A DNA stretch of 64,000 nucleotides from an uncultured Actinomycetes bacterium (GTDB lineage Bacteria; Actinomycetota; UBA4738; HRBIN12). The notes beneath the pieces are model-generated. The model was not told the origin of the DNA. It saw only the letters and a program-made list of their open reading frames with translations, and did no database searches. Where the stretch lies: positions 1,122,828 through 1,186,827 of the forward strand of contig CAVTOC010000006.1 in the NCBI GenBank assembly GCA_963736335.1, in the 5' to 3' direction. Positions within the stretch are counted from its first letter, which is position 1, and every line of letters begins with the position of its first letter. Below are positions 1 through 2,505 of the stretch, in pieces. The position numbers were made by a program, and so were the translations under genes.

Positions 1-1582
1 GTCACTACGCGATCGTGTGCAACCTCCCCGGCCACTACGCGATGGGCATGCACCAGGACTTCAACGTGGTGCCCGCCGGCTCGACGCCGATCACGGTCGG
101 TCTCGGCGAGACGGATGCCACCCACATGTTCATCGACCTGTCCCAGCCGTATGCCCCCGAGGGCAAGGTCACGTTCATCATCACGAACCAGGGCGCCGAG
201 GATCACGAGTTCGTGGTCCTGCAGACCGACACCATGGCCGCGGACTTCCCGATCACCGGGTTCGAAGGCGAACCGAACCGCTTCAACGAAGACGCCAAGG
301 GCATCACCAACGTCGGGGAGACCGGCGATCCGGCGATGAAGCCGGGCACCTCCTTGATGCTCACGATCGACATGTCGGCCGGCCACTACGCCGTGGTCTG
401 CAACCTGAACGGTCACTACGCGATGGGCATGCACCAGGACTTCAACGTGGTGCCCGCCGGCTCGACGCCGATCACGGTCGGACTCGGCGAGACGGATGCC
501 ACCCACATGTTCATCGACCTGTCCCAGCCGTATGCCCCCGAGGGCAAGGTCACGTTCATCATCACGAACCAGGGCGCCGAGGATCACGAGTTCGTGGTCC
601 TGCAGACCGACACCATGGCCGCGGACTTCCCGATCACCGGGTTCGAAGGCGAACCGAACCGCTTCAACGAAGACGCCAAGGGCATCACCAACGTCGGGGA
701 GACCGGCGATCCTGCGATGAAGCCGGGCACCTCCTTGATGCTCACGATCGACATGTCGGCCGGCCACTACGCCGTGGTCTGCAACCTGAACGGTCACTAC
801 GCGATGGGCATGCACCAGGACTTCAACGTGGTGCCCGCCGGCTCGACGCCGATCACGGTCGGACTCGGCGAGACGGATGCCACCCACATGTTCATCGACC
901 TGTCCCAGCCGTATGCCCCCGAGGGCAAGGTCACGTTCATCATCACGAACCAGGGCGCCGAGGATCACGAGTTCGTGGTCCTGCAGACCGACACCATGGC
1001 CGCGGACTTCCCGATCACCGGGTTCGAAGGCGAACCGAACCGCTTCAACGAAGACGCCAAGGGCATCACCAACGTCGGGGAGACCGGCGATCCTGCGATG
1101 AAGCCGGGCACCTCCTTGATGCTCACGATCGACATGTCGGCCGGCCACTACGCCGTGGTCTGCAACCTGAACGGTCACTACGCGATGGGCATGCACCAGG
1201 ACTTCAACGTGGTGCCCGCCGGCTCGACGCCGATCACGGTCGGACTCGGCGAGACGGATGCGACCCACATGTTCATCGACCTGTCCCAGCCGTATGCCCC
1301 CGAGGGCAAGGTCACGTTCATCATCACGAACCAGGGCGCCGAGGATCACGAGTTCGTGGTCCTGCAGACCGACACCATGGCCGCGGACTTCCCGATCACC
1401 GGGTTCGAAGGCGAACCGAACCGCTTCAACGAAGACGCCAAGGGCATCACCAACGTCGGGGAGACCGGCGATCCTGCGATGAAGCCGGGCACCTCCTTGA
1501 TGCTCACGATCGACATGTCGGCCGGCCACTACGCCGTGGTCTGCAACCTGAACGGTCACTACGCGATGGGCATGCACCAGGA
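1..1582. repeat. 381-bp tandem repeat, more than 4 copies, over 99% identical
   Basis: Unit boundaries fall at about 40/421/802/1183/1564. The only differences I saw are 101 t vs 482 a, 332 g vs 713 t, and 881 c vs 1262 g. The last copy diverges after 1582. Confidence 0.9.
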
Positions 1583-1616
1583 CGTGTGGATCACCCCGGC
1601 CGCCGCCACCATCTGA
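1..1616 (+). CDS. Multi-domain cupredoxin (type-1 copper-like) repeat protein, 5' partial
   Basis: Frame 3 is open from the window edge to the TGA at 1614-1616. A 127-aa unit is repeated more than 4 times. Each unit has an EDHEF His and VVCNLNGHYAMGM (C-x4-H-x3-M, azurin-like ligand spacing), as in EfeO/Cupredoxin_1-type domains. Confidence 0.75.
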   Translation, partial: HYAIVCNLPGHYAMGMHQDFNVVPAGSTPITVGLGETDATHMFIDLSQPYAPEGKVTFIITNQGAEDHEFVVLQTDTMAADFPITGFEGEPNRFNEDAKGITNVGETGDPAMKPGTSLMLTIDMSAGHYAVVCNLNGHYAMGMHQDFNVVPAGSTPITVGLGETDATHMFIDLSQPYAPEGKVTFIITNQGAEDHEFVVLQTDTMAADFPITGFEGEPNRFNEDAKGITNVGETGDPAMKPGTSLMLTIDMSAGHYAVVCNLNGHYAMGMHQDFNVVPAGSTPITVGLGETDATHMFIDLSQPYAPEGKVTFIITNQGAEDHEFVVLQTDTMAADFPITGFEGEPNRFNEDAKGITNVGETGDPAMKPGTSLMLTIDMSAGHYAVVCNLNGHYAMGMHQDFNVVPAGSTPITVGLGETDATHMFIDLSQPYAPEGKVTFIITNQGAEDHEFVVLQTDTMAADFPITGFEGEPNRFNEDAKGITNVGETGDPAMKPGTSLMLTIDMSAGHYAVVCNLNGHYAMGMHQDVWITPAAATI

Positions 1617-1650: not shown

Positions 1651-2505
1651 ATGGTGGACCGGGTCTCGGTCGGGGGCGGAGCGACGGTGGCGACCCTCGC
1701 GCGCGGTTCGCTGGCCACGCTCTCGTCCTATCGGCACGATGCGGAGGTCCCGCATCGCGACCCGGAGGAAGAGCGCTTCCATCTGCCGACCCTCATCTTC
1801 ACGTCCAGCGGAACGTGGGAGATCCGCAGCCCAGCCGGGCGCGATCGGGTCGATCCGTCGGTGGTGGTGCTGGGCGGTGCGGGGCGCCCCTATCGAGCAA
1901 CGCATGAAGAACGCATCCCGTCCGACCGAACGATGTTCCTGGAGCTGTCCGAGCCCGACGAGGGGTCGGCGTTCGGGCGCACCGCCGGCGAGCTGTTCGC
2001 GGAGGTGTTCTCGCGACAGGCCGTCGCTCTGACCCGCGAGGTGGCGCGGCTCCAGGTGGCGCTCGCCGACCACGACCCCGACCACGTCTTCGGAACGCTG
2101 CGGACGGACGTGCTATCCATGGAGTTGCTGATCGAGCTCGCGGGCGCTCCGCGCGAACGCGCCACTCGGGTCGTCCGAGCGGATACCCGCGAGCGGGTGG
2201 TGCGAGCCCGTGAGTACCTGGACGAGCATCTGTCGGACGACATCGATCTCCGCACCCTGGCGCGGGAGGTTGCGCTCAGCCCGTTCCATCTGGCGCGTTC
2301 CTTCCGCCAGGAGGTCGGCGAATCTCCACACCGGTACCTGGTTCGTCGCCGGCTCGACCGTGCGGCCGAGCTGCTTGTCTCCACTCCGATGACCGTGACC
2401 CAGGTGTGCGACCGCGTCGGGTTCGGATCGCCGGCTCATTTCTCGCAGTCGTTCCGGCGCCGGTTCGGCGTGCCACCGAGCGTCTATCGAACGCTCGTCC
2501 CGTAG
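1651..2505 (+). CDS. AraC family transcriptional regulator
   Basis: C-terminal double HTH: LRTLAREVALSPFHLARSFRQEVGESPHRYLVRRRLDRAAELL...VTQVCDRVGFGSPAHFSQSFRRRFGVPPSVYR. Confidence 0.85.
   Translation: MVDRVSVGGGATVATLARGSLATLSSYRHDAEVPHRDPEEERFHLPTLIFTSSGTWEIRSPAGRDRVDPSVVVLGGAGRPYRATHEERIPSDRTMFLELSEPDEGSAFGRTAGELFAEVFSRQAVALTREVARLQVALADHDPDHVFGTLRTDVLSMELLIELAGAPRERATRVVRADTRERVVRAREYLDEHLSDDIDLRTLAREVALSPFHLARSFRQEVGESPHRYLVRRRLDRAAELLVSTPMTVTQVCDRVGFGSPAHFSQSFRRRFGVPPSVYRTLVP

What the first reader, a model, noticed from the sequence alone, without database searches (positions are those of the whole stretch)
1..1616. Poly-cupredoxin gene built from near-identical 381-bp repeats
More than 4 copies of a 381-bp (127-codon) unit are present, with only three substitutions noticed: 101/482, 332/713 and 881/1262. 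The gene continues beyond the 5' edge of the window. Each unit carries a complete putative type-1 copper ligand set: His in EDHEF, and Cys-x4-His-x3-Met in VVCNLNGHYAMGM, which is the spacing found in azurin. Near-perfect DNA identity implies very recent amplification or continuing gene conversion. It also makes copy number unreliable in any assembly. A string of identical single-copper domains could act as an extracytoplasmic electron wire or a copper buffer.
Basis: partly seen in the sequence, partly recalled or inferred. Interest (0 to 1): 0.6.

Follow-up and report, generated by a model that had tools for sequence, protein, structure and literature searches.

The report
Five-domain blue-copper lipoprotein, identical repeats
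The window opens inside a gene for a membrane-tethered protein of five blue-copper electron-carrier domains; four are encoded by near-identical 381-bp repeats that recombination keeps alike within each genome, and the gene closes a conserved respiratory operon in uncultured soil actinobacteria.

Summary
Window 3-1583 holds 4.1 in-frame copies of a 381-bp unit at 99% identity.

The gene starts 458 bp upstream of the window. It encodes a lipoprotein with a diverged first domain and four near-identical ones. Each domain folds as a cupredoxin and keeps invariant His, Cys, His and Met ligands.

About 29 of 33 long-read assemblies of related species carry five domains. Domains 2-5 are 99-100% identical within a genome but differ by 2-17% between genomes, which indicates concerted evolution. 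Short-read assemblies show only one or two domains, as collapse would predict.

The gene is always the last of six: NAD(P)-binding Fe-S flavoprotein, cytochrome b6, subunit IV, Rieske, cytochrome c, cupredoxin. It is most likely the high-potential electron arm of that complex. The direction of flow and any wire-like behaviour are untested.

In this assembly a 2-bp insertion breaks domain 1; it is probably a consensus error.

The parts
1..1616 (+). 3' part (537 codons plus stop) of the penta-cupredoxin lipoprotein gene. The gene starts 458 bp upstream of the window at G000:C6:1122369.
   Evidence: Open frame 3..1616. Upstream part read in L004. SoxE PF06525 matches four times, 93.9 bits. The intact 690-aa orthologue P0009 is 98% identical.
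1..59 (+). C-terminal end of the diverged domain 1, holding its copper loop (HYAIVCNLPGHYAMGMHQD).
   Evidence: Nine differences from later units at window 2-32, identical from window 33 onward. Domain 1 units form their own orthologous clade in the unit tree.
33..1583 (+). Near-identical repeat block: 4.07 periods of 381 bp with three synonymous differences.
   Evidence: Units 3 and 4 are identical; the edge units carry the variants.
60..440 (+). Cupredoxin domain 2 (127 aa). Predicted Cu ligands: His 204-206, Cys 399-401, His 414-416, Met 429-431.
   Evidence: AF2 pLDDT 93, pTM 0.86. Foldseek matches auracyanin 6kol at E 3e-5. The ligand columns are invariant. Codons read directly.
441..821 (+). 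Cupredoxin domain 3, with ligand codons at domain 2 positions +381.
   Evidence: 99.5% identical in DNA to domain 2 and 100% to domain 4.
822..1202 (+). Cupredoxin domain 4.
   Evidence: 100% identical in DNA to domain 3.
1203..1583 (+). Cupredoxin domain 5.
   Evidence: 99.7% identical to domains 3 and 4; one synonymous change at 1262.
1584..1616 (+). Unique C-terminal tail (VWITPAAATI) and the TGA stop.
   Evidence: Periodicity ends at 1583. Translation.
1651..2505 (+). AraC-family regulator gene. It is a neighbour, not part of the conserved operon.
   Evidence: Pfam HTH_18 and HTH_AraC. Present downstream only in the closest relative L005 and absent in the other loci.

Best explanation
The repeats are the coding sequence of a lipid-anchored protein that sits outside the cytoplasmic membrane. 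It consists of a signal peptide with lipobox (LLAAC), a disordered tether of about 35 residues, and five cupredoxin domains joined by very short linkers. Each domain has a type-1 copper site of the form His...Cys-x4-His-x4-Met.

The gene is translationally coupled (GTGA overlap) to a membrane-anchored monohaem cytochrome c. It is the sixth and last gene of a conserved operon: NAD(P)-binding Fe-S flavoprotein, cytochrome b6, subunit IV, Rieske protein, cytochrome c, penta-cupredoxin.

The most likely role is the high-potential electron-carrying arm of this second Rieske/b6 complex. It would take electrons from Rieske and cytochrome c and pass them to a terminal oxidase or another acceptor. Being tethered, the carrier cannot be lost from a cell that has no periplasm.

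Domains 2-5 are kept nearly identical at the DNA level by unequal crossing-over or gene conversion. Selection holds the number at five.

What is shown: the repeat, the fold, ligand conservation, the lipobox, operon conservation, concerted evolution and the five-domain count in long-read assemblies. What is inferred: copper binding, the redox partners and the direction of electron flow.

The 2-bp insertion that splits the gene in this assembly is most likely a long-read consensus error (about 70%) rather than a true pseudogene.
For: Repeat:
-.

Domain identity:
- SoxE Pfam match.
- AF2 pLDDT 93.
- Foldseek matches auracyanin and azurins at probability 1.0.
- H49, C114, H119 and M124 are invariant.

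Lipoprotein:
- RRRLATAVAIGGLLLAAC in the sequence.
- Cys19 is at least 90% conserved in 16 full-length relatives.
- Residues 1-54 are disordered in the full-length model.

Operon:
- Pfam assignments and the L005 gene list.
- The same five genes lie in the same order directly upstream in about 47 of 78 related loci, while downstream genes are not conserved.

Respiratory background of the genome:
- Two haem-copper oxidases.
- A second Rieske/b6 cluster beside the aa3 oxidase.

Concerted evolution:
- Units 2-5 are 99.2-100% identical within about 20 genomes.
- 9-64 of 381 sites are fixed differences shared by all copies between genomes, mostly at third positions, against 3 sites variable within this array.
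- Units cluster by genome in the tree.

Five copies:
- 29 of 33 long-read loci.
- Genomes with 10 or fewer contigs in the family sample have 4-5 copies.

Frameshift as a likely error:
- All ten relatives lack the two bases, and the site lies within a small local cluster of differences from the closest relative, L005.
- A second 1-nt frameshift lies in a nearby gene.
- 9 of the 32 related long-read arrays, and this one, also carry frameshifts.

Precedents:
- Sulfocyanin works with an oxidase and a Rieske/b complex in Ferroplasma (PMC13741234).
Against:
- No oxidase gene lies in the operon. The aa3 oxidase cluster has its own single-domain cupredoxin, so the acceptor of the five-domain protein is unknown.
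- The flavoprotein suggests a less ordinary complex than a plain quinol:acceptor oxidoreductase.
- The frameshift could be real. All 14 neighbouring genes are in one frame, so the gene could be dead in this particular strain.
- The AF2 inter-domain geometry (pTM 0.79) rests on only 16 similar sequences.
Confidence: 0.65

Rival explanations
1. Electrons flow inward. The five-domain protein collects electrons at or beyond the cell surface from a high-potential donor such as Fe(II), Mn(II) or reduced humics. It feeds them through cytochrome c and Rieske into a complex that runs uphill to quinone or NAD(P)+. This resembles rusticyanin with the bc1 complex in Acidithiobacillus, or sulfocyanin with a Rieske/b complex in Ferroplasma.
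For: - The copper loop has rusticyanin spacing (PMC10654088).
- The domain belongs to the sulfocyanin Pfam family.
- Ferroplasma sulfocyanin is proposed to pass Fe(II) electrons to a Rieske/b complex (PMC13741234).
- The operon has an NAD(P)-binding Fe-S flavoprotein.
- The genome has a separate Rieske/b6 plus aa3 cluster for ordinary respiration.
Against: - No known iron-oxidase or other donor-oxidising gene was seen in the operon.
- The organisms come from ordinary, apparently non-acidic soils and sediments, judging by record titles.
- The redox potential is unknown.
- The rusticyanin and sulfocyanin equivalog models score far below their cut-offs.
Confidence: 0.15
2. In this genome the gene is a true pseudogene. 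A real 2-bp insertion in domain 1 ends the lipoprotein before its copper loop and leaves the four repeated domains without a signal peptide.
For: - The two extra bases at L004 9922-9923 (78/77 bp before the window) split the gene into frames 1 and 3.
- All 14 neighbouring genes are intact.
- The insertion does not extend a long homopolymer run.
Against: - The array downstream shows no other damage, and its only three differences are synonymous.
- All ten relatives are intact at the site.
- Another nearby gene has a 1-nt frameshift.
- 9 of the 32 related long-read arrays, and this one, carry frameshifts, which fits consensus errors.
Confidence: 0.28
3. The copy number, or the identity of the copies, in this assembly is an artefact of assembly or polishing.
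For: - Identical 381-bp repeats are hard to assemble.
- Short-read assemblies of relatives give one or two domains.
- Reads could not be examined.
Against: - 29 of 33 independent long-read loci give five domains.
- Diverged arrays (L015, L017 and L021) are preserved by the same pipeline, so differences are not being erased.
- The array is in frame, with intact unique flanks.
Confidence: 0.08
4. The protein is a copper store or a copper-resistance protein like CopI, not an electron carrier.
For: - Weak NCBIfam matches to CopI models.
- Five metal sites per chain.
- His and Asp are conserved just after the Met ligand (GMHxD).
Against: - CopI scores are 54.8 bits against a cut-off of 280 and 39.1 against 200.
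- No copper-export or sensor genes are adjacent.
- The conserved neighbours are Rieske, b6 and cytochrome c genes.
Confidence: 0.04

Closest known systems
Auracyanins A and B of Chloroflexus and Roseiflexus (PDB 6kol, 1qhq, 2aan)
   Same: - Best structural match to one unit (6kol: E 3e-5, TM 0.59; 1qhq: TM 0.57).
- Membrane-tethered blue-copper carrier that serves a quinol-oxidising complex (established knowledge).
- Best, though non-significant, PDB sequence hit among copper proteins (2aan, E 0.11).
   Different: - Auracyanins have a single domain and partner Alternative Complex III.
- This protein has five domains, sits in a Rieske/b6 operon, and has no significant sequence similarity to auracyanins.
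Sulfocyanin SoxE of Sulfolobus and Ferroplasma (Pfam PF06525, TIGR03094)
   Same: - The only Pfam family passed by a single unit.
- A membrane-bound cupredoxin that works with a Rieske/cytochrome b module and an oxidase (PMC13741234).
   Different: - The equivalog model TIGR03094 scores 83 bits against a cut-off of 168.
- SoxE is archaeal, has a single domain and is encoded with oxidase genes.
- This protein is bacterial, has five domains and has no oxidase gene in its operon.
Rusticyanin of Acidithiobacillus ferrooxidans
   Same: Same ligand loop spacing, Cys-x4-His-x4-Met (His85, Cys138, His143, Met148; PMC10654088).
   Different: - TIGR03095 scores 33.6 bits against a cut-off of 146.7.
- Rusticyanin is a soluble, periplasmic, single-domain protein of an acidophile.
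Anammox Rieske/cytochrome b complexes with an NAD(P) oxidoreductase subunit (Kuste4569-4574, Kustd1480-1485)
   Same: - Operon with split cytochrome b6, subunit IV, Rieske and a cytoplasmic FAD plus four-cluster Fe-S NAD(P)-binding subunit.
- These complexes are proposed to make NAD(P)H by bifurcating quinol electrons (PMC12954380).
   Different: - The high-potential side in anammox consists of hexa- or octahaem cytochromes c.
- Here it is a monohaem cytochrome c plus five copper domains.
- Homology of the flavoproteins to the anammox subunits was not tested.
Cell-surface proteins with identical intragenic tandem repeats (for example streptococcal Rib/alpha C and staphylococcal SasG/Aap; from general knowledge)
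   Same: Long in-frame repeats kept near-identical at the DNA level by recombination. This genome has other such arrays in large surface proteins.
   Different: - Those repeats are structural or adhesive, and their copy number varies freely.
- Here each repeat is a redox centre, and the number is held at five across species.
Multicopper oxidases and ceruloplasmin (several cupredoxin domains in one chain)
   Same: Several cupredoxin domains in one polypeptide. These are the top Foldseek hits for the full-length model.
   Different: - Global TM is at most 0.2 and rmsd about 24 A.
- The sequence has no HxH trinuclear-cluster motifs.
- The domains here are equivalent single type-1 sites, not a catalytic assembly.

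Membership tests
Type-1 (blue) copper cupredoxin domain | Greek-key beta-sandwich cupredoxin fold | tested here: met
   AF2 of one unit gives pLDDT 93 and pTM 0.86. Foldseek matches auracyanin and azurins at probability 1.0 and E 3e-5 to 2e-4.
Type-1 (blue) copper cupredoxin domain | His ... Cys-xn-His-xm-Met ligand set conserved | tested here: met
   H49, C114, H119 and M124 are invariant in 31 domains down to 29% identity and in all five domains of 16 full-length proteins.
Type-1 (blue) copper cupredoxin domain | Binds one Cu, with a roughly 600-nm band and small parallel hyperfine EPR signal | not testable with these tools
   Needs purified protein.
Sulfocyanin SoxE | Passes the Pfam PF06525 gathering score | tested here: met
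   One unit scores 26.7 bits against 21; the partial protein scores 93.9 bits in 4 stretches. The four near-identical units of this locus are the only matches in the genome.
Sulfocyanin SoxE | Passes the equivalog model TIGR03094 | tested here: not met
   83 bits for four domains and 23.4 bits per unit, against a cut-off of 168.4.
Sulfocyanin SoxE | Encoded with terminal oxidase genes (SoxM-type cluster) | tested here: not met
   The operon holds no oxidase gene. The COX1/2/3 genes lie about 0.7 Mb away.
Auracyanin | Significant sequence similarity to auracyanins | tested here: not met
   phmmer against PDB: 2aan at E 0.11 and 6kol at E 0.42.
Auracyanin | Partner is Alternative Complex III | tested here: not met
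   The conserved neighbours are Rieske, cytochrome b6, subunit IV and cytochrome c.
Bacterial lipoprotein | Signal peptide ending in a lipobox L-[AS]-[GA]-C | tested here: met
   RRRLATAVAIGGLLLAAC is read in L004. Cys19 is at least 90% conserved. No dedicated predictor was available.
Multicopper oxidase | HxH motifs for a trinuclear Cu cluster and a compact domain assembly | tested here: not met
   No HxH or HCH motif appears in the sequence. Global TM to ceruloplasmin and laccases is at most 0.2.
CopI copper-resistance cuproprotein | Passes the NCBIfam CopI models | tested here: not met
   54.8 bits against 280 and 39.1 bits against 200.
Rusticyanin | Passes TIGR03095 | tested here: not met
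   33.6 bits against 146.7. Only the loop spacing is shared.
NAD(P)-oxidoreductase-bearing Rieske/cytochrome b complex (anammox type), operon context | Split cytochrome b6, subunit IV and Rieske, plus an FAD/Fe-S NAD(P)-binding subunit in one cluster | tested here: met
   Pfam: Cytochrome_B, Cytochrom_B_C, Rieske, and Fer4_20 + Pyr_redox_2 + 2x[4Fe-4S]. NCBIfam: PRK12771 NAD(P)-binding protein at 432.6 bits, below its cut-off of 516. Gene order is conserved in about 47 loci.
NAD(P)-oxidoreductase-bearing Rieske/cytochrome b complex (anammox type), operon context | Multihaem cytochrome c on the positive side | tested here: not met
   There is only a 163-aa monohaem cytochrome c with one CAACH motif. 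The five copper domains take the place of the multihaem proteins.
NAD(P)-oxidoreductase-bearing Rieske/cytochrome b complex (anammox type), operon context | Flavoprotein physically bound to the complex and NAD(P)+ reduced | not testable with these tools
   Needs biochemistry or a structure.

The most novel reading that the evidence does not exclude
Uncultured soil actinobacteria may carry an anammox-like, electron-bifurcating Rieske/b6 complex that reduces NAD(P)+ through its Fe-S flavoprotein. The high-potential outlet of this complex would be a semi-rigid chain of five equipotential copper centres. Run in reverse, the same chain would be the inlet for an external donor. The chain would be long enough (roughly 15-20 nm plus tether) to reach into or across the cell wall. 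That would make it a protein 'copper wire', doing with copper what multihaem cytochromes do with iron. Recombination that keeps the domains identical would then keep all five sites at the same potential.
Probability: 0.12. Interest if true: 0.85.

Novelty: new variant of a known kind. Interest (0 to 1): 0.58.

Why it matters
Tethered single-domain cupredoxins are known electron carriers. A chain of five identical type-1 copper domains as a fixed part of a Rieske/b6 operon was not found in any paper of the held library.

If the function holds, three things follow:
- It adds a copper-based, multi-centre carrier to the repertoire of monoderm respiration.
- It links such a carrier to a Rieske/b complex with an NAD(P)-binding subunit outside the anammox bacteria.
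- It offers a clean natural case of concerted evolution acting on redox centres while selection fixes their number.

It also matters in practice. Short-read metagenome assemblies report this gene with one or two domains, so databases under-represent it.

Tried and rejected
- **Read evidence.** Neither the copy number nor the 2-bp insertion could be checked against reads.
- **PDB sequence search.** One unit gave nothing significant (best copper protein E 0.11), so structure prediction and Foldseek were used instead.
- **Multicopper oxidase reading.** Rejected: no trinuclear-site motifs, and global TM at most 0.2.
- **CopI or copper-buffer reading.** Rejected on model scores and gene context.
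- **EfeO reading.** NCBIfam NF041757 scores 81.8 bits against a cut-off of 270, covers only a 35-residue strand region, and no efeU or efeB gene lies nearby. Rejected.
- **One-off recent amplification.** Rejected because five domains are conserved across many species, and L015/L017 show positional orthology of diverged units.
- **Literature.** Searches for tandem or multidomain cupredoxin arrays found no description.
- **Model coordinates.** They are not exposed, so Cu-ligand geometry and Cu-Cu distances could not be measured.
- **Genome-wide frameshift rate.** Not estimated; only local comparisons were made.
- **Taxonomy.** Placement below 'Actinomycetes' (record titles) was not resolved.
Full report
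**1. Observation**

Window 3-1583 holds 4.1 head-to-tail copies of a 381-bp unit, with 99% matches and no indels. Comparing each base with the one 381 bp later gives 12 differences.
All are synonymous third-position changes.
- Nine cluster at window 2-32. This is the tail of a diverged first unit.

The near-identical block is therefore window 33-1583. The frame is open from the window edge to TGA at 1614-1616.

**2. The whole gene**

The window is G000:C6:1122828-1186827, and I fetched the upstream DNA as L004. The gene starts at a GTG 458 bp before the window. This start overlaps the stop of a cytochrome c gene as GTGA.

The product begins with RRRLATAVAIGGLLLAAC, a signal peptide with a lipobox. 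A Gly/Pro/Ala-rich tether follows, and then five domains. Unit 1 is about 76% identical in DNA to the others.

In this assembly unit 1 is 377 bp, not 375 or 381. Two extra bases at L004 9922-9923 shift the frame. The first open frame therefore stops inside domain 1, and a second frame carries the remaining domains.

All ten relatives examined lack these two bases, and the site lies within a small local cluster of differences from the closest relative, L005. A nearby SRPBCC gene in the window also has a 1-nt shift relative to a relative. Nine of the 32 related long-read arrays, and this one, carry frameshifts. I therefore read the shift as a probable consensus error (about 70%).

**3. What the unit is**

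- One unit passes only the sulfocyanin Pfam model: SoxE scores 26.7 bits against a cut-off of 21. Cupredoxin_1 and Copper-bind fall below their cut-offs.
- The equivalog models for sulfocyanin, rusticyanin, CopI and EfeO all score far below their cut-offs.
- No solved structure is a significant sequence relative.
- An AF2 model of one unit, built on 31 diverse domains, is confident (pLDDT 93, pTM 0.86). It matches auracyanin of Roseiflexus best (6kol, E 3e-5, TM 0.59), then azurins and auracyanin 1qhq.
- In the domain alignment H49, C114, H119 and M124 are invariant.
- The loop reads C-N-L-x-G-H-Y-x-x-G-M, which is Cys-x4-His-x4-Met. This is the spacing of rusticyanin (His85, Cys138, His143, Met148; PMC10654088).
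- His and Asp after the Met (GMHxD) are also nearly invariant; their role is unknown.
- The sequence has no HxH motifs.
- The full-length model resembles ceruloplasmin or laccases only domain by domain (global TM at most 0.2). It is not a multicopper oxidase.

**4. Relatives and copy number**

A word-indexed search found 89 relatives, many of about 690 aa. In each of those read, domains 2-5 are identical or nearly so within the protein but differ between proteins. An exhaustive HMMER search with one unit found 2309 clusters carrying one to six domains.

A scan of species-representative genomes gave 77 loci. The closest are long-read MAGs labelled 'uncultured Actinomycetes bacterium'. Tiling the domain hits gives these counts for long-read loci, this genome included:

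| Domains | Long-read loci |
|---|---|
| 5 | 29 of 33 |
| 4 | 2 |
| 6 | 1 |
| 2 | 1 |

Short-read MAGs give one or two domains. This holds even when their operon DNA is 92-95% identical to that of a five-domain long-read relative (L035 versus L026; L044 and L047 versus L029).

A sample of 61 genomes of the same family shows the same pattern. Tandem arrays of 4-5 copies appear in genomes with 10 or fewer contigs. Genomes with 170 or more contigs show 1-2 copies, including a genome of the same genus.

That is what collapse predicts. Assemblers would report one domain where all units are identical, and two where unit 1 is diverged.

**5. Concerted evolution**

- Units 2-5 are 99.2-100% identical in DNA within about 20 genomes.
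- Between this genome and eight relatives, 9 to 64 of 381 sites are fixed differences shared by every copy. Most are at third codon positions. Only 3 sites vary within this array.
- In a tree of 120 units, units 2-5 group by genome.
- In the clade of this genome, the unit-1 sequences form a separate orthologous clade, so unit 1 has long escaped homogenisation.
- In this array the two central units are identical and the edge units carry the variants. Unequal exchange would produce that pattern.

Some lineages are informative exceptions:
- L015 and L017 have five units only 76-87% alike that pair by position between the two genomes.
- L021 has a two-unit higher-order repeat.
- L023 and L025 have units 1 and 5 alike and units 2-4 identical.

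The five-domain architecture is therefore old. The identity reflects continuing recombination, not a single recent amplification. The mechanism (gene conversion or unequal crossing-over) and selection on the number five are inferences.

**6. Genomic context**

Five genes lie upstream, tightly packed or overlapping:
- a 616-aa cytoplasmic protein with a GltD-type Fe-S domain, an FAD/NAD(P) fold and a two-cluster ferredoxin domain;
- cytochrome b6, closest to NCBIfam ExtP (267.7 bits against a cut-off of 290);
- subunit IV;
- a Rieske protein;
- a membrane-anchored monohaem cytochrome c.

The same five genes lie in the same order directly before the cupredoxin gene in about 47 of the 78 related loci. 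The AraC and MFS genes downstream are shared only with the closest relative.

The genome has two haem-copper oxidases. It also has a second Rieske/b6 cluster next to COX1/2/3, and that cluster has its own single-domain membrane cupredoxin. The four near-identical units of this array are the only SoxE-family matches in the genome.

**7. Mechanism**

The conserved coupling to Rieske, b6 and cytochrome c makes an electron-transfer role much more likely than copper storage. So do the lipid anchor and the type-1 sites.

I favour the outward direction (0.65). In this reading quinol is oxidised by the complex. The high-potential electron passes through Rieske and cytochrome c to the copper domains, and then to an oxidase or another acceptor. 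This resembles auracyanin or sulfocyanin.

The flavoprotein recalls the anammox Rieske/b complexes, for which NAD(P)H production by bifurcation has been proposed. In those, four Fe-S clusters lead to FAD (PMC12954380). The same cofactor count is predicted here from domains, but homology to those subunits was not tested.

The reverse direction is the main functional rival (0.15). There an external donor would feed the copper domains, which would feed the complex, as proposed for Ferroplasma sulfocyanin (PMC13741234).

The full-length AF2 model has a disordered N-terminal 54 residues and very short linkers. The strand after the Met ligand runs almost directly into the first strand of the next domain. 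Its pTM of 0.79 hints at a fairly fixed arrangement.

**8. Novelty**

The domain type is known, and NCBI already names some relatives 'sulfocyanin-like copper-binding protein'. Three things appear undescribed in the library searched:
- the fixed five-domain chain;
- its concerted evolution;
- its place in this six-gene operon.

Two earlier reports of this scan, on other genomes, reached the same reading. They are not independent evidence; I re-derived each point here. What is specific to this window is that only the 3' part of the gene is inside it, and that this assembly carries a frameshift in domain 1.

Noticed in passing
L004 9922-9923 (78/77 bp upstream of window position 1; G000:C6:1122749-1122750): A 2-bp insertion, absent from ten relatives, splits the cupredoxin gene into two frames in this assembly. 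It lies within a small local cluster of differences from the closest relative, L005.
   Followed up: partly
window about 9716: The SRPBCC/AHSA1 gene is split between two frames relative to the orthologue in L006. The shift lies at or near a short G run. It suggests indel errors in this assembly.
   Followed up: partly
L091 (G000:C6:422000-440000): A second Rieske/cytochrome b6/subunit IV cluster lies next to COX1, COX2 and COX3. It has its own 348-aa membrane cupredoxin (L091 907-1953, minus strand), ResB/CcsA-type cytochrome c assembly genes and a small ferredoxin.
   Followed up: partly
G000:C6:641821-644076 and G000:C5:855700-857401 (outside the window): Two other tandem arrays at 99% identity (periods 852 and 861 bp) lie inside very large secreted proteins with FN3-like and lectin-like repeats. 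Near-identical intragenic repeats are therefore not unique to the copper protein in this genome.
   Followed up: partly
L015 8103-9974 and L017 8001-9989: These are five-domain arrays whose units are only 76-87% identical and pair by position between the two genomes. This lineage has no homogenisation.
   Followed up: partly
L021 8001-9923; L023 and L025: L021 has a two-unit higher-order repeat (d2=d4 and d3=d5, 86% between the pairs). L023 and L025 have units 1 and 5 alike and units 2-4 identical.
   Followed up: no
L018, L037 (same contig, about 14 kb apart) and L019: One MAG (MFD10007.bin.1.78) carries three copies of the whole operon with five-domain genes. This is either real paralogy or a mixed bin.
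   Followed up: no
window 432-440 and each +381 (GMHQD): His and Asp directly after the Met ligand are nearly invariant across the family. They could form a second metal site or an inter-domain contact.
   Followed up: no
L004 7195-8527: The cytochrome b6 and subunit IV score just below the NCBIfam cut-offs for ExtP and ExtQ of the 'selenite/tellurite reduction operon'. This points to a b6 clade shared with that operon.
   Followed up: no
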